Shown: positions 13,560 through 62,230, counted from the first letter of the whole stretch. The stretch: DNA of 63,289 nt, filler included, from Folioceros fuciformis (GCA_049999805.1; 5 parts of 5 records of this genome joined end to end with filler, not necessarily neighbours in it), one strand, 5' to 3'. Notes: generated by a model not told the origin, from the letters alone. Made by a program: numbers and translations.

Positions 13560-14440
13560 GACCACGCTTTATTGATTTTGAAATCCAGGTCCCAAATCCA
13601 AACCACTATGAGAGTGTGTGCATCCCGTAGCACCCCCCCAAAGCACCATGTAAGGGCGCATTGCCACATAAGCCTTCCTAAACAACCCTATGAGTGTGCG
13701 CTCATGCACACTCTACTGATCCTAAATTCTAGGACCTAAATCCAAACCACGATGAGAGTGTGTGCTTCCCGTAGCACCCCCCCAAAGCACCATCTAAGGG
13801 CGCACTGCCCATAGTAGCCCTCCCAAACAGCCTTGTGAGTGTGCCCTCATACACACTCCGCTGATCCTAAATTCCAGGTCCTAAATCCAAACCACTATGT
13901 GAGCATGTGCTTCCTGCAACACCCCTAAAGCACTGTGTGTGGGCATGCTGCCCATAGCAACCCTCTGAAGCAACCCTATAAGTGTGCTCTCATGCACACT
14001 CTGCTGATCCCAAATTCCAAATCCTAAATCCAAACCACTATGTGAGTGTGTGCTTCCCGCAACACCCCCCAAATCTTCGTGTGTGGGCACATTGCCCATA
14101 GTAGCCCTCCCAAACAACCCTATGAGTGTGCGTTGATGCACACTCTATTGATCCTAAATTCCAAGTCCTAAATCCAAACCATCATATGAGCGTGTGCTTC
14201 CTACAATACCTCCAAAGCACCGTGTGTGGGCTTATTGCCCATAACAGCCCTCCCAAACAACCCTATGAATGTGCTCTGATGCACACTTTGCTAATCCTCA
14301 TCCAGGTCCTAAATCCAAACCACCGTATGAGAGTGTGCTTCCCGCAGCACCCCCAAAGCACCATGTAAGGGAGCGCTGCCCACAGCAGTCCTCCCAAGCC
14401 AACCTTTGAGTGCGTGGTCAATACTGATCATCAAATCCAA
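13560..14440 (+). repeat. ~144-bp tandem repeat, about 6 diverged copies
   Basis: CCTAAATCCAAACCA recurs at ~13591, 13735, 13880, 14022, 14167 and 14308. Confidence 0.9.
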
Positions 14441-22060: not shown

Positions 22061-22154
22061 TTGGATCCCTGTAGGCTGCCCACCTTCCAATGCATCACTG
22101 AATGGCTTGCCAAGGGTTTGGTGTTGATTACTTTGAATGTTGTGGGCCATCACT

Positions 22155-23463
22155 ATGTCATACCGCTCACTGCGAAAGCAATTTTTATTGGACTTAGAGA
22201 AAGTTATGGCCATTACAAGTTTGCTCAACGACACTTCAGAGGAGGAGGATTCGTCTGATGAGGAAGAAACTCTCTCTGATTTATATATACTTGCTCAAGC
22301 ATCTCGATTTGTGAATGTGAAAGGCAAACGCCATCGCCCCTTGTACTTGTGGTCATCCACACTTTCTAACATGCATCCAGATGAGTTCAGACAATTGCTA
22401 CGTACTTCACATCAGGGTTTCAAGTCGCTCTGCACCCTCCTTAGCAACAACTAAGTTTTCTTTAACAACTCCAATTGTTCTCAGAGTCAAGTTGCTTGGC
22501 AATTGGGAGTTGCTTTATGTAGATTTGGAGCTGCAGGAAATGGAGCAAGCATTGGGAAAATATGTCAACTATTTCACATTGGCCATGGCACCGTTGTAAA
22601 ATGGACCCAACGTGTGATCACTGCTTTGCTTGATATGCGGCATGAGTGAATGAAATGGCTAGATGAGAGTAGACGTTCTGAGATTAGTGAAGTGATGTGC
22701 CCAGAGGGTTTTGAGGGATGTGTTGGCTTCATTGACGGGACAACTTTGCCGTTATCACAAAAGGCTGGTATTGGCGGCGAGCAATATTTTGATAGGAAAC
22801 GAAGGTATGCCTTTAACATTTCACAAACATCAAAGACCTCCAACATGCTTGATTTATGATTCCAATACTATGTTTTGTGTGTACATGTATTCTATGAACC
22901 TCCAAGTTGTCTGTGATGTAGACAAAAGAATCACTTCTCTACATGTTGGTTGTCCTAGCTCTAATCATAATGCATTTGTGTTTCAAAGAATGAGTATTTA
23001 TAAGGATCCAAGAGCTCATTTCTCGGCAGGGCAATACCTTCTAGGAGATTCCGCATATTCAGTGTCACATTTTTGTATTCCATCATATCGAGCTCCTACC
23101 TCTAGGGAGAATATAGAGCTCAATTATTGCTTATCTAAAAGCAGAGTTCGAAATGAGTATTGCATTGGCATATTGAAGTCCAGGTGGGGATCTCTGCGAG
23201 AGCTACGACGCCAAATCAAATGTGAAGAGGATGTTAGACAAATATCTAGGTGGGTTGTTGCATGTTGCCTGCTACACAACATGTTGGCCAACCTTGGGGA
23301 TGCTTGGAATGAGCTTTGTCATGAGGAAGATCCTGTGTTGAATGCACAAGATGACCCGACACAAGTTTATGGAAATACAGCTGCAAGCTTTCGTGAAGTT
23401 TTAAAGCCAAAAGTACTAGCTAGAAATTATGAGAGAGGTGTATTGCCGTTAACTCATGTATGA
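22155..23463 (+). mobile_element. PIF/Harbinger (DDE_Tnp_4) transposase, degenerate
   Basis: QLGVALCRFG..GNG, CVGFIDGT, YFDRKR|YSMNLQVVCD, YLLGDSAY, SRVRNEYCIGILKSRWGSL, CCLLHN. In-frame stops at 22452 and 22647; intron from 22805 with a damaged acceptor. Confidence 0.88.
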
Positions 23464-23629
23464 ACTGTTACTTTTGAAGGGCTATCTACAGACTCTTATC
23501 ATTGCCAAAATTCTTTTCCAACTTCTGAANNNNNNNNNNNNNNNNNNNNNNNNNNNNNNNNNNNNNNNNNNNNTTAATTAATTAANNNNNNNNNNNNNNN
23601 NNNNNNNNNNNNNNNNNNNNNNNNNNNNN

Positions 23630-26420: not shown

Positions 26421-27588
26421 GAGGCACTGGCCTTGGTACTGTAGAGATGGTGAACCTATGGAGTTTCACCTAAATTTGTTGTTGGTAGACTAATCTTGTA
26501 GCAGTAGCGTTGGTAGTTTGTAGATGTTTTGTGGAAGGTGCTGTTGGTTGCCTTCTTGCCTCCGTGGTCTAGCTTAATGAACTTGATGTTGTTGTGAACC
26601 CTGTAAGAGTAGCTGTAATTGCTGCTGTGGCTTCTTTTATCTGCAATTCCTAAGGTGTCATTTGCAGAGAACTGTTGCAACACCCTCAAGCTGCAGTATG
26701 ATGGAAATGCAAGCTTGAAAATTATTGTTTAGTGGGGATGGTAGAGGCCCGACATCCTTGGACATCATGAAACCCTTAAGAGCTTGTTCCATGCATGAAG
26801 TGGATTTTGAGAAGCAAATTAAGCTGGTTCCTTAGGAATGCATTTTTCACGTGGATGTGCACTGGATTGAATGGGGTAGCTGTATAATGGAATTGTGTTG
26901 CTATTGTAAGTGTGTCGGTGTGCACTTCATGGACTAGACCTAAACCCTTTCCCATAAACGACAGTGGTTTTAATTGGTGCATCTCCGAAACACTACCAAA
27001 CCCTAACCCCTGCAAACCCCGGATATGTTGCATATGTGTGTAGTGTATCTTAAAATACTGTATGATTTTTTATGATGCATGAACTCTCCACATGCCCGTT
27101 ACAAGTGATAAGCAAAAAAGTCCCTCGAGGGTGTACAAGTAGGTCCTTCGACGTGGCTATGTTCAGTAGGAGAAACTGTGGTAGATTCTACCATATATTC
27201 TCGTATAAAATACGCATAGCAGGAAAAAAAAAAAAAGTGTCTAGGGCGTGTCCGAATCGGTATTCGTAGCTCTGGTGGGAGAGCTTAGGCCCGCCGCCGT
27301 CGATCCTCAGCTTTTCCCTATGGCTGTAGCCAAAATACCAACCACGGGATGCTTAATTTAATCAGTACGTTCTAAACAGGTGTTGGAAAGTGTGTTGGCC
27401 AACGATAGACACATTTGAAGGCTTTACGTTACTCTTCTGGGCCTAATTAAGAAAATTGAACCGCACTGTGCCGGAGCCTTGGTTGGTACATCGACAGCCC
27501 CCTTCGAGCTTGAAAGATTTGGTAGGCCTTATCAGACAAGGTAGAGAGCACCGGCGTTACCACGAGACCGTCAGGAGCGGGAGGAGCC

Positions 27589-28065
27589 ATGAGTGGCGCG
27601 GATAGCGCAGGGAAGCGCAAGGCCGCGGAAGCGGAGGTGGGAGATGGGGCAGCGGCGAAGAGGAAACTGATGTCGCCGCTTCCCGAAGAGCGGCAACAGG
27701 AAAATGTGGGGAGAAGGTGCGTGCACGAAGTGGCTCGGCCTCCGGGGTACGTGGCTAGGCAAGACCAGGCAGTCCATGGAAGCATCGACAATCCTGTGTA
27801 CCGGGGAGAGATGGCAAAGAAGTATCCCTTCAAGTTGGACGCCTTCCAGGAGGTGTCGGTGGCGTGCCTAGAGCGCAATGAGTCCGTGCTGGTGTCGGCG
27901 CACACTTCCGCTGGCAAGACGGCTGTTGCGGAGTACGCTGTGGCTATGGCGTTCCGGGACCGGCAGCGAGTCATCTACACTTCCCCGCTCAAGGCGCTGA
28001 GCAACCAAAAGTATCGGGAGCTGGCGCAGGAGTTCGCGGACGTAGGGCTTATGACAGGGGACGTG
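27589..28065 (+). pseudogene. HEN2: 5' fragment (159 codons) of the exosome Ski2-like RNA helicase HEN2/MTR4-type; the ORF runs on into antisense Copia gag to 28224
   Basis: [41 protein letters not shown] (motif I), [24 protein letters not shown]; similarity then ends abruptly. Confidence 0.85.
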
Positions 28066-28253
28066 TACTTCCCCCTTGAAGTGGACCTTCCTCTCACCAT
28101 AAGGGCATTGAAACCTTTGGAAGGTTCTATATTCTTCCCGTTCACCTCCTCTGTTAACAGGCTACCTTCTACATTTACAATGGTAAGACCACGGGCAAGA
28201 GCGGAATTACTCAGAGCTGTATGAAAGGTGTCCCAGCTCTCTGGTAATGTGAT
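28066..28253 (-). mobile_element. Copia gag fragment, the exact continuation of the gag broken at 24380
   Basis: Encodes [17 protein letters not shown]...[15 protein letters not shown], matching 56108-56295. Confidence 0.9.
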
Positions 28254-29628: not shown

Positions 29629-29728
29629 NNNNNNNNNNNNNNNNNNNNNNNNNNNNNNNNNNNNNNNNNNNNTTAATTAATTAANNNNNNNNNNNNNNNN
29701 NNNNNNNNNNNNNNNNNNNNNNNNNNNN

Positions 29729-30919
29729 ATCCATGTGGCACGCTACTTTCAACTAATTGATGATATGGAGGAGCTCGTTAGCGTCGTAATAGAGACATTA
29801 CAACTTCCAAACCTAAAGAGAAAACATAAACAAAGAGAAATGTTTGCAAACCTACTATCGCTTGCACTCAAATGCTTGCCCACAGATGTGGAGGCCTCCT
29901 TCTTTGAGTTTTTGATCAAGAAGATTTTTTCTACTTCCATTTATAACTTGACTTGCGAAGACTTGAGTTCTAAGGCGCTAGAGTTTTTGTTATCCAACAC
30001 AGTGCAATGTTCAAACCCCTGGCCATACACTTTTACCTCCTATTCTAGTGAGTTTAAGATCTTTGACTACGTGGTGCGATGGTCACGCTCTCATTTATCA
30101 AAAGATGTGCAGCTGGTATTGGACAAAGTATTCTATAAGCTACTTGTAGATAATAGCTTTGACATCAACAAGTGCGAGCTGGAGGACGTAGAGGCATTGC
30201 AGAGTTTAGCCAACATTGCTCGTCCTTTCTTTCGCTTCATAGATTTTAGGCTTATACAACCCGAGCAATTATCTCGAGTCATTGAGCCCTTGAACATAGT
30301 TCCTAGCGAAATGTTGGTTGCAGCTTTTTGCTATCACGCCAGGACCTCCAACTTTAGGGCAACCATTCTTTACCGAGGGGCATGTATTCTACAGTGGTCC
30401 CCGACAGCGCATGCCAATGAGTTGATTTTGTACAACTCAAGAGAATTATTATTCTATAGCAACATAGAGACAGCAGGATTTGCAAGGGCCTACTCGTGCT
30501 TAAAGGGTGGTGGGCAACATAGCTGGATTATTAGTATTGACAACATCTCTAACCCCACAGGCATCGGGATCGGATTTTGCTCTAATTTAGCAAAAGATTA
30601 CTCCGAGTGGCTTGGAACCAGTCCTTATGGTTGGATTCTAGATGGTGCTGGCAAGTTTTGGCACGATGGTACGTATACAATTAGGGATGACAACACTCGA
30701 TTTCAGGTTGGTTCCACAAAAGTTCAAGTTACGGTGAACCTAGATCTAGGCAAATGCTATTTTCAAATTATTAGAAATGAAAGTAAAATAGGGTCCTATG
30801 TTGAATTCACGGTTCCCGAGCTTCGTCAAGATTGGCTCAACATTCCTAAGCGTATCTATCCTGCTGTGAGCTTTTCTAGAACAACAGGACGAGTTTCTCT
30901 AGAGCCTTGTCTTACTTGA
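29729..30919 (+). CDS. Intronless BTB(end)-BACK-like-SPRY/ConA-like domain protein, 5' truncated by the gap
   Basis: Frame is open from the gap (IHVARYFQL, end of BTB); SSEFKIFDYVVRW; FIDFRLI.PE.L..VIEPLNIVPSE.L..AF.YHA; SPRY-like W.ISI..IGIGFC, WLG.SPYGWIL, V.VNLDLGKC.F, LNIPKRIYPAVS. No stops over 394 codons. Confidence 0.75.
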   Translation: MHVARYFQLIDDMEELVSVVIETLQLPNLKRKHKQREMFANLLSLALKCLPTDVEASFFEFLIKKIFSTSIYNLTCEDLSSKALEFLLSNTVQCSNPWPYTFTSYSSEFKIFDYVVRWSRSHLSKDVQLVLDKVFYKLLVDNSFDINKCELEDVEALQSLANIARPFFRFIDFRLIQPEQLSRVIEPLNIVPSEMLVAAFCYHARTSNFRATILYRGACILQWSPTAHANELILYNSRELLFYSNIETAGFARAYSCLKGGGQHSWIISIDNISNPTGIGIGFCSNLAKDYSEWLGTSPYGWILDGAGKFWHDGTYTIRDDNTRFQVGSTKVQVTVNLDLGKCYFQIIRNESKIGSYVEFTVPELRQDWLNIPKRIYPAVSFSRTTGRVSLEPCLT

Positions 30920-31419
30920 AAAATAAATTTAGAGTGATTGTTGTGGCCTTCTTTGTTGGTCCTACAATTTTAGTAATATACTAGCATTTTTAAAGGTTGT
31001 TTTATGTTTTCCTTCACCTTGCAAGGCTTTGGGTTGGAGCAAGTTGGTGTAGCTTTAACCCCTTGAACAAGGCTTATAGAGAACTAATAAATAGAATATT
31101 GTCATGACTTAGAAAGTCTGCTAGAGTGTTGCATTTGTGTGAACTTGCTGTGCAGACCGGTACCATACGAGTTGACCACTCATGGCAAATAAGTGCGTAG
31201 TGAGGATAAATCCATTGCGTTTTGACTAAAGAGGCAGCTAATGGATGAAAGTTCTCACAAAAGGACGGTTGGAGAGCACAAGTATGTTGGTAGTTAACTT
31301 TGTGAACAGGTTATACCGGTTAGGAATGCTCACCCAGGTAGTTGGCAACGAAATGTTGCAAGTATATAGGGTTCTGGAAAGAATGAATGGGCATTCTTTT
31401 GATAGTTCGCTTAGAAAGC

Positions 31420-33485
31420 TGAAAGATAAGATACAATTGGCGGATCTTAGCATTACACTTTGATCATTGAGCTTGTAGCAAACTGAACAATTGAATCAAA
31501 CCTCTGTGTTATGAATTCGCATACACACAGTTCATTGCATGTGGGAAGGGTACGATGACGTGATATAGAGGATAGTCGAAATGACAGCACGAAACTTGTT
31601 ACTATCAAAAGAATTGTGCTCTCCTTGGAGCATGGCACCTTTAGGTGGAGTCTTAGCAAATAAATAAACAGATCCAAGATACAAGTACACGTTAGAGTGT
31701 TCAGTTGTGTTTGGGTCAAAGAGAGACAAGTGCTACCATGTTCCAAGGAAGGAAAGGTTTTTGGTTGGAGCAAAAGTGCAAAAGTTTGTAAAGCCAAGAC
31801 CCGAGGACAGATGTTTGTTTTCATTTGAGGCAACTTGAACAAGAATGTTAAGAGTGTGGATGTGAGTATTTAGGTGTTTGACTTGGAAGGTGATGGGTTG
31901 GAAGGTGAATTAGTATTACAATTTTGTGGCAAACCATAGTGTGGTGGTGAAACCTATAACAATGTTGTTGAAAAAGGATGCAGTGTGGGTTTGGGTAGAA
32001 GATCAACAGAGAGCGTTTAAGGAGATAAAAAAACATTTTGATGAGCAACCCTTTGCTGAGAAGACCCAATTTTGACAGAAAGTTTAAGTTATATACTTAT
32101 TGGAGCAAGCTTGGTTTGGGGGCAGCGTTGGCATAGGATGATGAAAATGGAGTGGAGCATATGATAGCATATGCAAGTAGGAGTAACAATTATGCTGAGA
32201 GTAATTATTCCTCATATCATGGAGAATGTTTGGCGGCAATATGGGCGGTATCATTTGTATGGTACTCAATTTGAGTTGGTGACAGATCATCAACCTTTGA
32301 AGTGGTTGATGAAAAGTGAAAAATTGACAAGAAATTAGCAAGGTGGGCACTCATTTTACAGGAGTATAATTTTGCTATTGAGCATAGAGTAGGAGTGAAA
32401 CATGCTAATGCAAATGTGTTATCAAGGAATCCGTTGGGAAGTGCGTAGAACTCCACAATTGCCAGGCAAGATTTTGATAAAGATGAAAGGGTTGAGTATA
32501 ACTTGGTGGTGTCCAAATGAACACCGAGTGCATGCCTGGCGAATTTTGTGGGGTTTGGAGTTTCTTCGGCAATGGTGGAAGTTTGGGAAGACAAGAAGAC
32601 ATTGAAGCGGGTGATGATGGGTAGGAATAAAGAAACATTGACGATAAGGAAGAATGATAGAGTGACAAAATGAAGTAGAAGGTATGTATGGGTTGACAAT
32701 AAGTTATTGTTTAGGGAAAACATGAAAGTGGTGCCAAGACTGGAAGAAAGGATGAATTTGACAAAAAAGATTCATGTAGAGTTAGGACATTTTGGTACAA
32801 AAAGGACACTGAGTTTACTCATAAACAATTATTATTGGAAAGGAATGATGGAGGTGGTGGAGAAGGTGGTATCTACTTGTGAGGTTTGTGAAAGGGTGAA
32901 AGCGAGTTTTTCAGGCAAAACTTCTCAACTTCATCCGTTGCCCATTAGGGGGATGTTTTATAGGTGGAGTTTGGATTTGGCTAGAAAGTTACCAGTCACG
33001 CGTACAGGTTTTAAATATGTGTTGGTAATGATAGAACATTTCTCTAAGTGGATAGTTTTGGTGCCTTTAAGAGAGAAGAAGGCACATGACATTAAAGAAG
33101 CGTTTCTTAATCATGTGTTGAGCGTTTTTGGGGCTTGTGTAGAAGTTTTGACAAATTAAGGTACTGAATTTATGGGAGATTTTGATGAATTTTTTAAATG
33201 AGTATCTTATTGATAATAGGGTTTCTTCAAGGAATCATCCAGAGGCTGATGGTTTGATGGAGAGAATGGTACAAACATGTAAGAGGGCTTTGAGGAAGTA
33301 TTGTTTGATAATGGACAAGAGTGATTGGGATAGGATATTACCATTTCTTGCAATGGGTTATAAGATGAGCAGGCAAGCATCATTGGGAAAGTTTTCGCAA
33401 TACATGTTGTTGTTTGGGCTAAGGCCATAGTTATCTAGGATGTTGGAAGACAAGGTGAATGCTATAGTGGAGTTGGATGATCCTA
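31420..33485 (+). mobile_element. Ty3/Gypsy pol (RT-RNaseH-integrase), degenerate
   Basis: IAYASRSNN.AESNYSSY.GECLA, TDHQPLKWL, ARWALILQEY, HVELGHFG..YYW..CEVC, VMIEHFSKW, HPEADGLMER. Many stops. Confidence 0.88.
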
Positions 33486-33585
33486 ANNNNNNNNNNNNNN
33501 NNNNNNNNNNNNNNNNNNNNNNNNNNNNNNNNNNNNNNNNNNNNNNNNNNNNNNNNNNNNNNNNNNNNNNNNNNNNNNNNNNNNN

Positions 33586-34550
33586 NTACCCACCGCCCCC
33601 CCCCCCCGTTTCCTCAAGGACTCCAGCACCAATCCTCCCTCTTCTCGCTGGTCACGACCATACACCCTCCTCACTAGCTCCAGGTTCCACCCCTACGATC
33701 TGCCTCTGATTACCTTCTCACGGACAGGTTCCCTCAACCTCAGGGTGCACTCCCTGACCAACTGTGGTGCTGCGTGGTTCCACTTCTGGGTCACAAAACC
33801 CAGACCCAATTCATCCACCAGCCCTCCTGCTCTAATCCTCCAGTGCTCCATGTTGGGCCACAAGAGTAGGTCGATCCGGGGAACAGGAGGTTCCCCCTCC
33901 TGCTCGGGTACTCCAGGCAGTAGTTCAGGACGTGACCTCATACCAATCTCCTCCTCGTGCTCCGGCTTCTGCAGTCCCTCCTCTCTCTCGCTGAGCACTC
34001 GCTGCTTGCCTCGGCCCGTCCTGTTGCCTCAGCGTCTGCTTCCCTTCCAGCTGCCTTTACGCTCCCGGGTTACTGCCCTTCACGTTCGAAGACTAACTTA
34101 ATTCCCCTCCAGACTTCCCATTAGGGTTTTTATATTGGCCGTTTTCTTCTCTCACTACTGCCAGTTAGACTACCACCAGTCGTCCTTTTCGCGACGGTTG
34201 CCTCACTGGTCACCGTCGCCCAGTCACCTCAACCCATCCTTTTCCTAAATCCACAACTAGCTAGCCCCCTTTCCTACTCATTTCTATTTCTTATTTCCAA
34301 AAAAAGGGGGGGGGGGGGTATATACAACCTCCTAAATGCCCCCGAACCACCAAGGCCCAAGGACACCCTCACTCACTCACTTCCAAATTGTGGTTTTCGG
34401 TATCCCAAACACCCAAAGACCAAGGCCATTTTTGGGTATGAACACCCCCATTTTATTTACATACTAAGCCGATTCGCTCGTTCCTTCACACAAAAAATCG
34501 CAGCCTGCTCATTCTGTCACTCAAAATGGGAGTGTCGAAAGTTTTTTTCC
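33586..34550 (+). mobile_element. Probable Gypsy 3' region: antisense extra-ORF fragment (33693-33998), PPT (34299-34318) and start of an LTR at ~34321
   Basis: AAAAAAGGGGGGGGGGGG followed by TATACAACC (degenerate TG start). The minus-strand ORF fragment precedes it. Confidence 0.45.
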
Positions 34551-45230: not shown

Positions 45231-45350
45231 TTTCTCTAAAGCCTATCTCACATTTGGACAAATGTTTTTAGAGTGATTGTTGCAGCCTTTGTTTTGGGTT
45301 CTCCAATTTTAGGAGTGTACTAGTATTTTTAACTATTTCATGTTTTCCTC
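45231..45350 (+). pseudogene. Remnant 3' end (last codons + 3' UTR) of a paralog of the BTB-SPRY gene
   Basis: TTTCTCTAaAGCCT...TTTAGAGTGATTGTTG..GCCTT...CAATTTTAG..TACTAG.ATTTTTAA..ATGTTTTCCT aligns by eye to 30894-31013. Confidence 0.65.
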
Positions 45351-46754: not shown

Positions 46755-49700
46755 TCACTTCCTTCCCGATTGAGGCCTGCCGGACCCACGTCCTTTGCCA
46801 ACCCCCTTGGGCCTTGACCCCGCTTTACTAGCGCCCGCTTTGCTACGCCCCTTGCCGGCGCCCAATTTCACTCCTTTCCTCTTGAAGCCGCCCTTGACAG
46901 GACCGCTGCCCCTGGACCGGGCGTCCTTTTTCATCCGCCTATCTACTATTACTCGGCCCTTCCCACCCTTGGCTCCTACTCCTTTCTTGGCCACCACAAT
47001 CTCGCGCTTTCCCTTCTTCGGGGCCGCTAACGCCTTCTTATAAAGTTTCTCCATCATGCTGTTTTTCGACTTGGCGCTAAGATCAGGCTGGTCTGCTATT
47101 GCAGTAGCCTTGTGGCGAACTTGCTCCAATTTTTTCTGAACTCGCCGCTTTTTCCTAGCCTTGGCCTCCGCCACTTTCTTCACAGGTCGGGCATTGATGT
47201 CCCTGAACTGAGCTTTCATAGCCTCCACCTCTTCCTTCGTCACAGGCTTCTGGGGTTGGTGGTGTTTTCGTTCATCGTCTGCAAACCATCTTGGAAGGTT
47301 GTCATCGTTAAAGGTGTACCTGTTGTATGCAGCATCCAGAATGTCTTGCGCGCTTTTCTTCCGCAACATGTGCCTTGCATACGCAAGAATCTCGGCCTTT
47401 TCATCACTGTCATAGTCAGCATCGTCATCTGTGGAGGAATCATCACCTGAAGCGCTCGCCTCTGCAGGAACGATTTCGAATTCGCCATCGGCGGCATCTG
47501 GACTTGCAGATCTCTGTCCATGTTTCTTCTGCCCATCCACGCCCTTCTGCTCTGCCCTGATCGCCTCCTCAAATTCTAGATTCTTTTCTGTGTGCTTTTC
47601 CACCCCCTCCAATTCATCATCGCTTATGTCATTTATTGTGTCCACGCCCGCAAATACATCTTGACTGAACCATTGCTGCGCTACCTGCTCCTTAGCTAGT
47701 TTCACCTTCGGCACTAGAGGCACTACCAACGGGTTTGCATTCTCGTCTTCTTCGGCTGAATCAGATGCAGCTTCATGCGCATCAGTACCTTCCACATCTT
47801 CCTGCGGGCAAACCAAAACGGATCAGCACAAAAGAGGAGCCAAATCCGAATAACCCAAAGCAGCAACGGCCCTCAGACAAGAACGAAAGCCAAGCGAATC
47901 AGGCGACCTTCCAAAGGTCTGAATCCTTCTCCAAATCAGCTAGCTTAGTACGTTGTCTTCGTTTCGTACTGCCGTCCTTGCTGGCTCGAAATTTATCATA
48001 CGCATACTCCAAATATTCATCGAGTTCAGCATCATATCTGCTTGCAAAACGAACAGAGGAGCAATGCTTATGAGAAATGACAGGACACAAAACAATGTCC
48101 GAACGTCAGAATAAGTCACCCTAGTGATCACACCATGCTGCATCCAAAGCGCGAACAAGCTGAAGCACAAACCTCTGCCTCTCCTCTTCTGAATCCAGAT
48201 CACTATCCTCAGCGTCTGGCTGCACACCATTCAGTATCTTATCTTCGCTGTCGTAATCTTCATCATGATCTGCCGACTCTATGTTCTCAACAGTGTGAAG
48301 GTCCTTTTTCCCCTGTCAGACACACCCAGAACGTCAGGTTCTCCATGAATCTATTGATGCTCTCATCCAAAAGCCAAGCCTCTAGATACCTTTATCGCTG
48401 CCAGTGAGAAAAGGTCATCATCTCCGTAAGCATCTTCCATCACATCCACCTGCATGCCTGTTGCAGAACGCGCCTTGGCCTGGAAGGAAAACTCGCCATA
48501 TGCAAAAATTTTGAGTGCGGCACAGGTCATTCCCAAATATACAAATACATCCGATCAAGAAGTACTGCATAGAAAATCTGATTAACCTTTGCTTTCCGTT
48601 TGGACAGCAACTTCTTCTGCCGCTTCTTCTTTCTTTCCATCAGTCCCTTCAATTCCTCCATCTGAGCCAAAACTCCCTCCTCTTCAGCATCCGAATCCTT
48701 GGACACATCTGTTTTGGCTTTCTCACTTACTTCAGGATGAGCCAAGGCTTTCCTTATCTGCAACCTCCACCTTCAGAAGCACAATGTCAGACCACATGTG
48801 CCACTGCGAATCATAAAGAAGTACCTGTGCCCTCCACCACTTACTTCAGGAGCTGTTTGAACTCTTGCTTGCCAAGTACGCGCAGATCCTCACAGCAAAT
48901 TAATATCTGACACAACATCAAAACCATGACTAAGACAGTTCTTGCGGCTTACACCAAAGACGCAGCAAAACTCAATTACAATCCCTTGCCCAATGTCCGA
49001 TCTTTCCTACCTCCTCTTTAGTGAGAGGATGATCCTTAATCACTGAGCACCTTGTATCTTTGAAAGAGATTGCAGTTACCGTCCCCAACAAGTCCAAAGG
49101 CTTGTCACACCAGACGAACTCTGTTGCAGCACATTCTTTACGCAGCGTAGTGTTGCCTTCCTCATAACTAACATCATGGACGTAATACGATCAGGGGCCA
49201 GGCAAATATGTGCGGAAAGCTTCTCTCACGATGAGACGTCATGCTACAAAAGGAATTACAGCTAATGACAGCAAAGGCTTCAAGTGCAGGAGCTACCCTT
49301 CACGATGCCTCTTTCGCTTGTTTGGAGCAAGAACATCGACCACCTAAACCAGACCAGACACACATACAGTTAATTACACTGCCCTTTGCAATGATCTCCA
49401 AAAGGAAACATCATCTCAGATACCTTAGCTGGTTCCAGAATCTCCTGAAATAAATGCTTAGAGTCCAGCAGTCGAGGATCGATTTTAGCAGGCGCGTTGT
49501 ACTCCAACCCTATGACATAGATCTCAGCGGAAGTTGCTCGACTGGCTACAGGCTTGGTGACCTCGACCTTCCTAAATAGCTGCATAGTCCACAACAAAGA
49601 AGGTCGGAACCCATCATCCAGGACATGAATCGAATTTCATCCGGTATATCCAGAGGGCACGACGGCACTCCTTGCAGATGTCAACATCAACCACAATGAG

Positions 49701-50329
49701 CAGCAAGCTCAGTACCTGCTTCAAGGCGTAAAGAAGAGAGCTGTAGTCCTGAGAACGAAACACCTGACGAAACAGAAAACCACAAGCGTTAGCCTTCAAA
49801 ACAATTATCAACCCTTTCAAACAACAGGGCACAAAGGTGGCATGAACACCTTGGTCACAAAAGTTCCTCCTGGAGACAGGAACTCGGTGGCCAGTTTAAT
49901 TGCATCCAGAACCAGGGCTGCCTGGGACGACGCCTCCTTGGACCAAGCACCACCCACATTTGGTGAGCCATCATGTAGTACCACGTTAACCAGAGAATAG
50001 CCCTTCTCCTTCAAAACCTTCTTCAGACTCGCCCTGCACTTGGGGGTAGTAATATCCTCCTGCAAACTAACAGCACCTCGGATGGGCCTGATAGGCACCA
50101 AGTCCACCCCCACGATGAGAGAACCCACGGGCATGTGTTTGGTGGCCACTTGCATCCATCCTCCTGGTGCAGCACACAGATCCAACAGAGACCTCGCGGA
50201 AGCGAGAAACCTGTACTTCCTATCGAGCTGCACCAGCTTGAAGGCGGCACGTGATCTGAATCCCTGTTCCTTGGCTAAATAATAGAACCTATCCAACCGC
50301 CCCTTCCCAGTCGTCTTGCTCTTCCCCAT
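46755..50329 (-). CDS. SPB1: AdoMet-dependent rRNA methyltransferase SPB1/FTSJ3, multi-exon
   Basis: [108 protein letters not shown]. Confidence 0.95.
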
Positions 50330-50522
50330 GCTGTCCGCGCTACTCCGACAGGAAACCCCTAGACCACCAACGTCACAAGGGCACTTGACGAAAAAACGAA
50401 GCCCAGTCTGCGCAGCAAACGTTGCTCAGAATTTACTGTTTCACGTCACGCTTTCAGCGAGGGACAGTCGTTGACGGTTAAAAAGGAAACCCTGGGCATT
50501 TCTTTCCGTTTTCGTGAGCCGG

Positions 50523-54604: not shown

Positions 54605-54704
54605 NNNNNNNNNNNNNNNNNNNNNNNNNNNNNNNNNNNNNNNNNNNNTTAATTAATTAANNNNNNNNNNNNNNNNNNNNNNNNNNNNNNNNNNNNNNNN
54701 NNNN

Positions 54705-54770: not shown

Positions 54771-57700
54771 TAGCTCCTTCTAGCAATCCTACAAGTGGTA
54801 TCAGAGCTCAGGTTGTGGAGCTTGGATTGCGGAGCAAGGGTGATGGCTCAGGTTGCTTCGGATAAGGTGCACAAGGCGACTTTGAAGTGAACACGTTGTT
54901 GGGTACAAGGTACTCCAACCCCCTTGCAATGCGGAGCGGGAATAGGAGCCAGAGACCCGGCTGCGGGCGCACAAGCGGAGAGGTGCCGCGGGCGCAGAGG
55001 GCGCAAAACCAGCCAAGCGCCCGACCAGGCCGGGGAACCAGGCAGCACGCACGGGCACGACCAGAACCCCGGCAGCGGGGGGTGCCAGAGCTCGCTGAGG
55101 GGGCGCCCAAGCCCCAGGGCCTTGGGGCACAAGCGGGCAGTGCAAGCCCCTTGGCCGGCAGGCCACCCTGGGGAGGGGGCACCGCCAGCCCCAGCCAGCC
55201 AGGGGGGGCCTGACCTCGGGTGCGCCAGGGGTGCCCAGGGCACCGCTAGAGCCCCCGGGGCACTAGGCCGGGGCGCGAGGCTTAAGCGGCGCCAGCCCGC
55301 CAAGGTCGTGGGGCGTGCGCCTAACATGGGCAGTAGCCCGGTGCGGGCGCACGGGTGCCGGCAGGCATAACGGTCGTCACAAGCGCCAAATCGCGGCGAG
55401 GCTACGGGCATCAAAGCACGACTAGGCTGCACGCGCTACGGGCGCCGAAGCTGGGGAGTAGTGAGCGCCGGAGAGCGGACGCAGGATAGCGATTGCCACG
55501 AGCGTCAAAACCGATCCCGGCTGCGAGGCGGCCAGATATCAATTGGAGGATTTAGGCCCATCGAGTCGGCTTGTGAATAGCCGATTCGTAACGGGTGTCA
55601 AGGTAACAAAATCTACATTTCATTTCGACCGCTTTCTAACTAGACTTTTGGTTGATTTGCATCAATTTTGAAACATGTTCAATATCGAGAAGTTAGATGG
55701 TACTAACTTCCCGTTTTGGAAAGAACAAGTGTATAATGTTCTAGTACATAAGAAGCAGATCAAGCCTATCAAGTTGCTAGGAGTGAGACCCGTTAGCATG
55801 ACTCAGGATGAGGGGCAGGATCTAGATGAGCTTGCTAGGTCTACCATCATGCTAACATTGTCGAAGTCGGTCTACTTCAACGTGAAAGACAATACCACAA
55901 GTTACGAACTATGGTAGAAGTTGTGTGACATGTACGAGAAGCAAAGTGTGGCTTTTCAGGTGTACTAGTTGAAACAGCTGATGGACTTGAGGATGAAGGA
56001 AGGGACGAGGATGTCCGATCATCTGAACGAGTTCAATACCATTTTTAGCCAGCTCTCATCTCAAGGTATCTCGTTCCCAGATTCTGTGAGAGCTATGTTT
56101 TTGTAGGTCACATTATCAGAGAGCTGGGACACCTTTCATACATCTCTGAGTAATTCCGCTCCTGCCAGTGGTCTTACCATTATAAATGTAGAAGGTAGCC
56201 TGTTAACAGAGGAGGTGAACAAGAAGAATATGGAACCCTCAAAAGGTTCCAATGCCCTCATGGTGAGAGGAAGGTCCACTTCAAAGGGAAAGTACAAGGA
56301 GCAAAGTCATTCCCGTAGTAAATCTCGTAGTCGTAACAATATTGAGTGTTACCATTATCACAAGAAGGGTCACTTCAGAAGGGACTACGAGAAGTTCAAG
56401 AAGGACAAATGCAAGGAGAAGAAGTAGAGCGACAACATGGCAAGTCCGAGTGTCAAGCGTGATGAGGTGAACTCTGTTGATGATGGAGATGTTCTTATCT
56501 CTTCTTCCTTCGATTCTGCACAACTGACAGCCGTGGAGAGTCACTTATTCTCTAATTGGATAATTGACTCTGGAGCATCTTTCCATGTTACTCCACGTAG
56601 GGAGTGGTTTAACACTTATGATGCTACTAGGAAAGGATGTGATCGGCTTGGAAATAACTACGCATGCGAGATTGCAAGCGTTGGTGATGTGTTGCTGAAG
56701 TTCGATAATGGATCTTTCGTACTGAAGAATGTTAGGCATGTTCCGAAGTTGACCAAAAGCATGATTAGCGCACGGCAGTTGGATGACGCTGGCTACCACT
56801 GTTGGTTTGGAGATCGTTCTTGGAAGATCTCCAAAGGTTCTCTTGTGTTAGCTTGTGGATCGAGGTGTGGCACTTTGTACTCACTTCAGGTAACCACTGT
56901 CAAGGTTCATGTGATTTGTGTAACGGAACAGCCAAATGTTTCCTTGTGGCATAGTCGGTTAGGACATATGTCTCAAAAAGGAATGAAGATCTCATCTCGT
57001 TTTGGTTACGTCCCTGCTTTTGACTTCTCTGATTTCTCGGTGTGTGAGCACTTTTTGTATGGGAAACAGACAAAGTCACCACATGGAGCAAGAGGTAAAC
57101 ACAAAAGTAAACCTCCTGAGTTGGTTCAAGGGTTTAGGGTTAGCCTAGTGTAATGCTATGAAATGCATCTAGAGAACTAGCATGCACTCAGAACATTAGC
57201 CTAGATGGCTCTAATACCATCTTATAAATTGTACTAGCGAAAGCGTTTGCAAGTAAAACAATATGCAATTAAATTATGAGTACACAAAATTATCTTAAAT
57301 AGCTGGTATTGTGCCCCTTGGGTAATTAGCCTAATTATAAATAAAAAATATGCTAGGTTAAACTAACCCCTAATTATTAATAGCACCCGTGTTGCCCACC
57401 TCCTCGCCTGCACACTTGTCGAGCACCGCTTGCCTTGGAATAGCAGTGAAGGAACCTATGGGAAGGGGTGTTTGCAAGGAGGAGCACAAAGCATTGGAGG
57501 CAGAATTGGAGGCGATTGAGTGGAGCATGAAGCAACAATTAAGGGAAGATGTGGGAGTAGCGAGGTCACTAGCTGCCATGGTGGACAACATGATGCGCTC
57601 TTTAAATTGGATGCGGGCCGGAGCCTTGAAGCAAGGAAGCAACCAAGCAAGTGGGCACGAAGGGAAATAAAATATGCGGAGGATGCTTCCTTAGAGGAGG

Positions 57701-62130: not shown

Positions 62131-62230
62131 NNNNNNNNNNNNNNNNNNNNNNNNNNNNNNNNNNNNNNNNNNNNTTAATTAATTAANNNNNNNNNNNNNN
62201 NNNNNNNNNNNNNNNNNNNNNNNNNNNNNN

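What the first reader, a model, noticed from the sequence alone, without database searches (positions are those of the whole stretch)
29729..30919. Intronless BTB/BACK-SPRY gene of mycorrhizal-fungus type in a plant scaffold: horizontal transfer candidate
Seen: a stop-free, intronless, AT-rich frame of more than 394 codons amid decayed TEs, whereas the large host genes here are GC-richer and intron-dense. Recalled knowledge: the motif order AxYFQL / SE(Y/F)xxF / IDFRxI..L..IEPL..(V/I)P / YRG..W / GW(I/V)L / NLPxxxYPxVS matches the BTB-SPRY (ConA-like) family expanded in Glomeromycota (Rhizophagus, Gigaspora). I do not recognise it from angiosperms, though bryophyte members may exist. Inference: a retained gene shared with, or acquired from, symbiotic fungi, possibly a Cullin3 adaptor.
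Basis: partly seen in the sequence, partly recalled or inferred. Interest (0 to 1): 0.75.

Follow-up and report, generated by a model that had tools for sequence, protein, structure and literature searches.

The report
Hornwort BTB-SPRY gene resembling mycorrhizal fungi
This is a genuine plant gene for a probable protein-degradation adaptor, from an old family shared by hornworts and ferns whose most similar non-plant relatives are in mycorrhizal fungi; an ancient gene exchange is possible but unproven.

Summary
The frame is real: 396 stop-free codons with all seven cited motifs. It begins at a contig edge, so nearly all of the BTB domain is missing and 'intronless' holds only for the part seen. 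It folds as a helical domain plus SPRY (Z 21). The host is probably a hornwort (LCIB present). It is not contamination: eight family loci were found, several beside plant genes, and three are full-length single-frame BTB-SPRY genes. The low GC marks a young duplicate (GC3 0.44 versus 0.69 in a paralog), not a fungal origin; dN/dS is 0.49. All 20 named hit clusters of 30 looked up are Glomeromycota (about 25-30% identity), but Adiantum ferns and ulvophyte green algae also carry the architecture. Land-plant copies form one clade spanning hornwort and ferns, so the family probably dates to the land-plant ancestor. No tree nests plants inside fungi with support (AU p=0.50). Verdict: a probable Cullin-3 adaptor of an old non-seed-plant family. 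Ancient plant-fungus exchange in either direction about 0.5; vertical descent with losses about 0.4; recent transfer or contamination under 0.05.

The parts
29629..29728 (.). Assembly spacer (two N runs around a short all-frame-stop linker); the gene's 5' end and nearly all of its BTB domain are not in the assembly
   Evidence: C5644 begins at 29729; a BTB-region search found no contig carrying the missing part
29729..30919 (+). 3' part (396 codons plus stop) of a BTB-helical-SPRY gene, young low-GC duplicate of subclade A
29729..29782 (+). Tail of the BTB domain (residues 1-18, equal to residues 159-176 of paralog C6119, whose Pfam BTB match is 77-176)
29783..30343 (+). All-helical middle domain (residues about 19-205), 3-box/BACK-like by position
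   Evidence: AlphaFold2 model pLDDT 83.7; the family profile matches KBTBD2 and gigaxonin over profile positions 9-223; Pfam BACK not detected in the plant copies
30386..30916 (+). SPRY/B30.2 beta-sandwich (residues 220-396), probable substrate-binding domain
   Evidence: VIA-align: TRIM67 PRYSPRY Z 21.0, rmsd 2.1, 158 aligned; RanBP9 SPRY Z 19.4, rmsd 3.4, 170 aligned
30920..31099 (+). 3' flank shared with paralog C1933 (82-83% DNA identity), so a DNA-level duplicate including the flank
31100..33486 (+). Multi-copy host repeat DNA with a decayed Gypsy-type integrase remnant, contiguous with the gene
   Evidence: Integrase Pfam hits at 32674-33156; exact-match run contig 30384-31234 bridges gene end and flank
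46755..50425 (-). Host Spb1/FtsJ3 gene in several exons on the same scaffold C5644, beyond a 100-N gap at 33487-33586

Best explanation
A genuine nuclear gene of a probable hornwort, cut at its 5' end by the assembly. It encodes a BTB - helical (BACK-like) - SPRY protein. Shown: the frame, the fold, the paralogs, purifying selection, and one land-plant clade holding hornwort and fern copies. Inferred mechanism (about 0.75): a substrate adaptor of a Cullin-3 RING ubiquitin ligase. The BTB domain dimerises and, with the following helices, binds the N-terminus of CUL3; the SPRY loops bind target proteins, which are ubiquitinated and degraded. The window copy is a young duplicate in repeat-rich DNA with faster-changing SPRY, which suggests substrate diversification or early decay. 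Inferred origin (about 0.5): the land-plant and Glomeromycota families share an ancestor much younger than the plant-fungus split, through one ancient gene exchange between stem land plants and stem Glomeromycota before hornworts and ferns separated. The direction is unresolved (about even).
For: Host gene: 8 family loci found; paralogs lie on 10-197 kb contigs beside genes for ribosomal L12, a DIRP protein, a Roc-COR protein and a bulb-type lectin. dN/dS window versus C1933 0.49 (bootstrap 0.35-0.72), versus C6119 0.30. Architecture: BTB in P0063, P0064, P0078 and BTB plus SPRY in P0078; SPRY fold; the phi-x-E Cullin-3 motif (motif recalled) reads M-K-E in C6119 and M-A-E in C5421; a cullin gene is in the genome (CUL3 type recognised from recall). 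Age: 13 land-plant rows form one clade, 96/95; subclade B joins hornwort C5421 with Adiantum, 100/98. Plant-fungus closeness: a land-plant profile scores Glomeromycota 307 bits on average and chlorophytes 196; mean tree paths plant-fungus 3.34, plant-chlorophyte 4.44; the land-plant stem is 0.16-0.22 substitutions per site against a crown depth of 1.75 and a chlorophyte stem of 1.5-2.1. All 20 named fungal clusters are Glomeromycota.
Against: The topology is unstable. Fungal monophyly is not rejected (delta lnL 0.06, p-AU 0.503). One 30-row tree joins land plants with chlorophytes (41/65). Another joins plants with fungi at only 66. The MAD root on the chlorophyte stem barely beats the next (0.193 versus 0.198). 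The sequences are about 25% identical, so short internodes may reflect saturation or rate shifts. BTB-SPRY occurs widely: nematode and haptophyte clusters, Naegleria (PMC4381221 table passage). Only one unnamed long-branch outgroup was available. Cullin-3 binding, expression and the BTB domain of this copy were not shown.
Confidence: 0.5

Rival explanations
1. Vertical descent with many losses. The BTB-SPRY adaptor is an ancient eukaryotic family kept in chlorophytes, hornworts, ferns and Glomeromycota and lost or unrecognisable in seed plants and most fungi. The plant-fungus likeness reflects slow stems, later fast expansions and sparse sampling.
For: Green-algal members exist: 2 of 15 hits named Ostreobium and Bryopsis. 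Land plants plus chlorophytes form one side in the best 30-row tree (41/65) and that split is not rejected (p-AU 0.50). The architecture also occurs in nematode and haptophyte clusters and Naegleria. LCIB shows that hornworts keep algal genes lost elsewhere (PMC8075897 passages).
Against: It needs a very short path (about 0.3 substitutions per site) between the plant and fungal crowns for over a billion years on each side (age recalled), while the chlorophyte stem is 1.5-2.1. No non-Glomeromycota fungus is among 20 named clusters.
Confidence: 0.42
2. Sub-case of the best explanation: fungus to plant. A stem Glomeromycota gene entered the land-plant ancestor.
For: Deep paralog diversity across Paraglomus, Ambispora/Geosiphon, Diversisporales and Glomerales. 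In the 41-row careful tree plants sit among fungal lineages and fungi are one side in only 16% of bootstrap trees.
Against: That nesting has support 72/40 and costs 0.06 lnL to undo. Fungi are one clade in 3 of the 4 rooted trees. Green algae have the family.
Confidence: 0.25
3. Sub-case of the best explanation: plant to fungus. The gene is native to green plants and passed from a stem land plant to the Glomeromycota ancestor, where it expanded.
For: It explains chlorophyte, hornwort and fern presence and the restriction of named fungal hits to Glomeromycota without fungal losses. In the BTB-plus-helical tree fungi are a clade (88) inside paraphyletic land plants (77). Plant-to-Rhizophagus transfers of other genes are reported (PMC5982333 passages).
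Against: The SPRY-only tree does not repeat that nesting; supports are unstarred; early-diverging fungi were not searched sensitively.
Confidence: 0.25
4. Recent, hornwort-specific transfer of this gene from a mycorrhizal fungus.
For: Low GC, single exon, repeat-rich setting; best non-plant hits are Glomeromycota.
Against: Only about 25% identity to fungal proteins but 49-70% to host paralogs; nested in starred plant clades with fern members; low GC is confined to the two young copies (GC3 0.44 and 0.41 versus 0.55-0.69).
Confidence: 0.03
5. Contamination by a fungal symbiont in the assembly.
For: The contig piece holding the gene is short (29729-33486) and is joined to the host Spb1 gene only across a gap.
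Against: 82% DNA identity to paralog C1933 beside a host DIRP gene; exact-match run contigs cross from gene into host repeat at similar depth, 8-9 (possibly the assembly's own sample, so not independent); full-length paralogs on 63-197 kb plant contigs.
Confidence: 0.01
6. About this copy only: it is a decaying duplicate (no longer functional) of an adaptor whose working copies are C6119, C6030 and C5421.
For: Relaxed dN/dS 0.49, lower CpG (observed/expected 0.65 versus 0.82), repeat-rich setting; broken relatives exist (C6373 with 3 stops, C1245 remnant); 5' end unknown.
Against: No stop or frameshift in 396 codons in spite of dS 0.35 from its sister copy; the upper bootstrap limit of dN/dS is 0.72.
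Confidence: 0.3

Closest known systems
Glomeromycota BTB-SPRY proteins (annotated 'concanavalin A-like lectin/glucanase domain-containing' or BTB/POZ; e.g. CAG8523609.1 Diversispora, KAG9295231.1 Geosiphon, GBB88631.1 Rhizophagus clarus)
   Same: Domain order BTB - helical - SPRY, length about 450-550 aa, shared motifs; best-scoring non-plant relatives
   Different: Only about 25-32% identical; the plant copies form their own clade; the fungal family is much larger (BTB/POZ is a high-copy class in R. irregularis, PMC8647823 passages)
Adiantum capillus-veneris GOP47_0005687 and A. nelumboides L7F22_050910 (BTB + SPRY hypothetical proteins)
   Same: Same land-plant clade; same Pfam architecture
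   Different: Subclade B with hornwort C5421; the window gene is in subclade A, so far seen only in this genome and one unnamed sequence (P0004)
Anthoceros angustus AANG004618 (BTB + SPRY) and AANG007601 (BTB; InterPro SPRY)
   Same: Hornwort genes of the same architecture with transcript hits and no Swiss-Prot/TrEMBL annotation (PMC7027989 Supplementary Tables 29 and 32)
   Different: Sequences not compared, so orthology is untested; not listed among the HGT genes of Supplementary Table 31
Ulvophyte chlorophyte BTB-SPRY clade (Ostreobium quekettii, Bryopsis sp.)
   Same: Same architecture in the green lineage
   Different: Highly conserved (51-86% to P0052), separated by a stem of 1.5-2.1 substitutions per site, and less similar to land-plant copies than the fungal ones are
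Cullin-3 substrate adaptors (SPOP, KLHL/KBTBD) and SPRY substrate receptors (SPSB1-4, RanBP9/10, TRIM9/67)
   Same: BTB region matches SPOP, KLHL22, KBTBD2; SPRY matches RanBP9/10, TRIM9/67, SPSB; both modules serve in ubiquitin-ligase substrate recruitment (established knowledge)
   Different: None of the 60 best solved chains shown combines BTB with SPRY over the whole profile; binding and substrates untested here

Membership tests
BTB-SPRY protein family (Glomeromycota-type) | N-terminal BTB/POZ domain | tested here: inconclusive
   Missing from the window copy because of the contig edge; present in paralogs C6119 (E 1.3e-7), C6030, C5421
BTB-SPRY protein family (Glomeromycota-type) | C-terminal SPRY/B30.2 domain | tested here: met
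   Model residues 220-396 align to TRIM67 PRYSPRY, Z 21.0, rmsd 2.1, 158 aligned; Pfam SPRY not detected in this copy but found in C5421
BTB-SPRY protein family (Glomeromycota-type) | Homology along the helical middle region and SPRY, not one domain only | tested here: met
   phmmer stretches covering most of the query, e.g. P0006 2-382, P0013 1-394
Cullin-3 substrate adaptors | phi-x-E motif in the BTB domain (motif recalled) | tested here: met
   Met in paralogs only: M-K-E in C6119 and C6030, M-A-E in C5421; not visible in the window copy
Cullin-3 substrate adaptors | 3-box/BACK helices after the BTB domain | tested here: inconclusive
   Helical region in both models; profile matches KBTBD2 and gigaxonin over positions 9-223; Pfam BACK not detected in plant copies
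Cullin-3 substrate adaptors | Physical binding to CUL3 and substrate ubiquitination | not tested
   A cullin gene is present; no complex prediction or assay was run
Fungus-to-plant HGT gene | Best non-recipient hits in the donor group | tested here: met
   20 of 20 named clusters Glomeromycota among 30 of 59 looked up; higher scores than chlorophytes
Fungus-to-plant HGT gene | Recipient nested inside the donor clade with support | tested here: inconclusive
   72/40 in one tree; p-AU 0.503 for fungal monophyly; other trees give other arrangements
Fungus-to-plant HGT gene | Absent from the recipient's outgroups | tested here: not met
   Present in ferns and, as a distant clade of uncertain orthology, in chlorophytes; streptophyte algae not sampled
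Fungus-to-plant HGT gene | Integrated in the host nuclear genome | tested here: met
   Paralogs beside plant genes; contiguity with host repeats
Fungal contaminant | High identity to fungal genes, foreign neighbours, no host paralogs | tested here: not met
   About 25% to fungi versus 49-70% to host paralogs; plant neighbours

The most novel reading that the evidence does not exclude
A ubiquitin-ligase adaptor gene passed from a stem land plant into the ancestor of arbuscular mycorrhizal fungi around the origin of the symbiosis and seeded one of their expanded BTB families, while plants kept it only in non-seed lineages. Exchange in either direction has probability about 0.5; this direction is the more surprising half.
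Probability: 0.25. Interest if true: 0.8.

Novelty: new variant of a known kind. Interest (0 to 1): 0.45.

Why it matters
BTB adaptors are one of the hallmark expanded gene classes of arbuscular mycorrhizal fungi. A family whose closest known counterpart sits in hornworts and ferns, and dates to the land-plant ancestor, would be a candidate molecular relic of the earliest plant-fungus partnership and would add a non-seed-plant class to the plant Cullin-3 adaptor repertoire. It is directly testable with existing bryophyte, fern, algal and early-fungal genomes. If it proves vertical, it is a modest finding: an overlooked ancient adaptor family retained in seed-free plants.

Tried and rejected
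Pfam scan of the fragment: no family. Word-indexed protein search with the fragment: 2 hits among 2094 candidates, both Glomeromycota; this tool is lossy (it missed P0004, known to be in the collection), so the lack of named moss, liverwort, lycophyte or seed-plant hits is weak evidence of absence. Search for the missing 5' BTB part in the genome: none found. Metagenome contig scan: 26 pattern matches, none confirmed. Sequencing runs: no RNA holder listed; runs X4 and X5 laid nothing, which is no proof of absence. Earlier scan notes: nothing by sequence, words or place. Low GC as a fungal signature: rejected, older paralogs are GC-rich. Lack of introns as an HGT sign: rejected, a neighbouring L12 gene is also a single frame. 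C6979 and C6239 BTB hits were dropped as other BTB families. Rooting by MAD was ambiguous. No CUL3 complex prediction was run: the host cullin's N-terminal region is split by an intron and the pair is a textbook one, so binding remains untested. Literature: BTB+SPRY+Rhizophagus 0 papers; BTB-SPRY phrases 1 paper, a Naegleria table row; hornwort+HGT+BTB+fungi 1 paper, listing only; hornwort+HGT+Glomeromycotina 0; searches listed nothing on this family by title or abstract start. Two recalled papers on plant HGT and hornwort genomes were not held, and the HGT data tables of PMC12513842 were not among its held supplements, so the family may already be listed there.

Full report
OBSERVATION. Window 29729-30919 (+) is one frame of 396 codons and a stop, far beyond chance (shuffle maximum 204 in 2000 shuffles). 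All 7 of 7 cited motifs are present in order, the last reading NIP rather than NLP. GC is 0.42, GC3 0.44. The frame starts at base 1 of contig C5644, behind an assembly spacer at 29629-29728. Its first residue aligns to residue 159 of a full-length paralog, so the start and nearly all of the BTB domain are missing, and a search with the paralog's BTB region found no contig holding them. Summed run-contig depth over the first 250 bases is 16-52 against about 8 further on, and two other contigs (C1933, C1245) begin at the same short sequence inside the gene. I infer that near-identical copies broke the assembly here.

HOST. The genome is 87 Mb in 7240 contigs with land-plant genes in the window, such as a NOI/RIN4-type gene. 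It has an LCIB match over the Pfam cut-off, split over short frames. LCIB is reported from hornworts and no other land plants (PMC8075897, passages). The host is therefore probably a hornwort; this is a one-marker inference.

FAMILY IN THIS GENOME. Searches give 8 family loci, a lower bound. Five are open: the window copy; C1933 (70% identity, also cut by a contig end); C6119 (about 50%, 549-codon frame); C6030 (32%, 604); C5421 (568). Three are broken or partial: C6373 (3 stops), C5956 (SPRY part) and C1245 (52-base remnant). Two further BTB hits were dropped as other families. The three full-length copies are single frames with a Pfam BTB domain. Neighbours are a ribosomal L12, a DIRP, a Roc-COR and a bulb-lectin gene on contigs of 10-197 kb. 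The window copy shares scaffold C5644 with a multi-exon Spb1 gene, across one 100-N gap. Run contigs matching exactly cross from the gene into multi-copy repeat at depth 8-9; these two runs are one sample and may be the assembly's source, so they are not independent. Contamination is very unlikely.

COMPOSITION AND SELECTION. GC3 is 0.44 (window) and 0.41 (C1933) but 0.69, 0.55 and 0.58 in the full-length paralogs; CpG observed/expected is 0.65 and 0.49 against 0.82 in C6119. At third positions where the two young copies agree and C6119 differs, 58 are A/T for G/C and 22 the reverse. Low GC is thus best read as a derived state of young copies in repeat-rich DNA, not a fungal signature. Window versus C1933: dS 0.35, dN 0.17, ratio 0.49 (bootstrap 0.35-0.72); helical part 0.38, SPRY 0.56; versus C6119 0.30. 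Selection is purifying but relaxed.

STRUCTURE AND MECHANISM. AlphaFold2 gives the window protein (pLDDT 83.7) helices to residue 205 and a beta-sandwich after; the sandwich aligns to TRIM67 PRYSPRY (Z 21.0, rmsd 2.1, 158 aligned) and RanBP9 SPRY. The full-length paralog folds as BTB, helices, SPRY. The family profile matches SPOP, KLHL22 and KBTBD2 at the N-terminus and RanBP9/10, TRIM9 and SPSB at the C-terminus. Full-length paralogs keep the phi-x-E Cullin-3 motif (motif recalled), and a cullin gene is present (CUL3 type by recall). From established knowledge of BTB and SPRY adaptors I infer a Cullin-3 substrate adaptor: BTB plus following helices bind CUL3, SPRY binds substrate (about 0.75). 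Binding, substrate and expression were not tested. 'Concanavalin A-like' in fungal annotations names the SPRY fold and is no evidence of sugar binding.

RELATIVES. A full HMMER search gave 59 representatives. The best, P0004, is unnamed, 45% identical to the query and 67% to C6119. Of 30 clusters looked up, 20 carry names and all 20 are Glomeromycota; 10 are unnamed; 29 hits were not looked up. The Atlas's first hit is a Mucoromycota BTB-SPRY cluster, followed by nematode and haptophyte clusters (leads only). A plant-profile search returned 6 proteins: 3 unnamed, 2 Adiantum, 1 Acaulospora. A broader profile returned 15 proteins of one conserved clade, 2 named Ostreobium and Bryopsis (their placement in ulvophyte green algae is recalled). 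Anthoceros angustus has two annotated BTB/SPRY genes with transcript hits, absent from that paper's HGT table (PMC7027989: passages and supplementary Tables 29, 31, 32 in part). Naegleria has a BTB-SPRY protein (PMC4381221, one table passage).

TREES. With 61 rows (rows under 280 aa and near-duplicates left out), 13 land-plant-type rows form one clade (96/95) with two halves: A (window, C1933, C6119, C6030, P0004; 100/100) and B (C5421, two Adiantum, five unnamed; 100/98). The unnamed rows are called plant-type only by this grouping. Hornwort copies on both sides and ferns in B put the duplication before the hornwort-fern split, which under bryophyte monophyly (PMC7027989 abstract listing) is the land-plant ancestor. 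The deeper relation is unresolved. In 41 rows with six chlorophytes, plants sit among fungi at 72/40, but holding fungi together costs 0.06 lnL (p-AU 0.503). In 30 rows with outgroup P0059, plants join chlorophytes at 41/65. Quick trees on 39 rows: whole protein, plants plus fungi 66; BTB-helical part, fungi a clade (88) inside paraphyletic plants, with a long-branch warning; SPRY alone, plants a clade (75) and chlorophytes among fungi. Land-plant monophyly itself is unstarred. No tree nests plants in fungi with support.

What still points to an exchange is distance. Land-plant copies score higher against fungi than against chlorophytes. The land-plant stem is 0.16-0.22 while its crown depth is 1.75 and the chlorophyte stem 1.5-2.1. 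Vertical descent from the last eukaryotic ancestor would need very slow stems and then fast crowns in both groups. That is possible for ligase adaptors that expand late, and saturation at 25% identity can shorten internodes. I weigh: ancient exchange 0.5 (about even between directions), vertical 0.42, recent hornwort-specific transfer 0.03, contamination 0.01.

NOVELTY. The architecture is known, and hornwort and fern members already sit in public annotations as unnamed proteins. My searches of the held library (listings only unless stated) found no description of the plant family or its link to Glomeromycota. PMC5982333 (passages) has no BTB or SPRY mention in its main text; PMC12513842 (passages) has none either, but its tables of 1,809 HGT families were not visible and may list it. 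PMC8647823 (passages) names BTB/POZ as a high-copy class in R. irregularis. Verdict: a real, old, seed-free-plant BTB-SPRY family with an intriguing but unproven tie to mycorrhizal fungi; the window copy itself is a truncated young duplicate and the least informative member. Interest 0.45.

Noticed in passing
window 23530-23629, 29629-29728, 54605-54704, 62131-62230: Four identical 100-base spacers (N runs around an all-frame-stop linker); the one at 29629 and the one at 54605 mark the ends of C5644, so neighbours across them need not be adjacent in the genome.
   Followed up: partly
window 27526-28224 (+): N-terminal part of a DEAD/DExH (Mtr4-like by recall) helicase that runs into a repeat shared with 56108-56296; the gene looks interrupted by a mobile element.
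   Followed up: no
window 22137-23463 (+): DDE_Tnp_4 (PIF/Harbinger-type) transposase frame, E 1e-22.
   Followed up: no
window 13563-14420: Tandem array of about 145-base units at roughly 80% identity.
   Followed up: no
window 45231-45349: 120-base stretch 76% identical to the gene's stop-codon region and 3' flank (30894-31013) and similar to the C1933 flank; a small dispersed repeat or a remnant of another copy.
   Followed up: partly
L007 (G000:C1919:2450-5545): LCIB-family gene in several short frames, used as the hornwort marker.
   Followed up: partly
L029 (G000:C6030:9000-18900): Roc-COR gene upstream of paralog C6030; the two 5' regions share a near-identical stretch of about 30 codons, suggesting a local duplication.
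   Followed up: no
P0052, P0085-P0098: A strongly conserved, mostly unnamed BTB-SPRY clade with Ostreobium and Bryopsis members; its function seems unstudied.
   Followed up: partly
PMC7027989 Supplementary Tables 31-32: A. angustus BTB-SPRY gene AANG004618 is four gene numbers from AANG004622, listed as transferred from Mucoromycota; may be coincidence.
   Followed up: no
P0002, P0003, P0026: Glomerales relatives with BTB and helical region that end before the SPRY domain.
   Followed up: no
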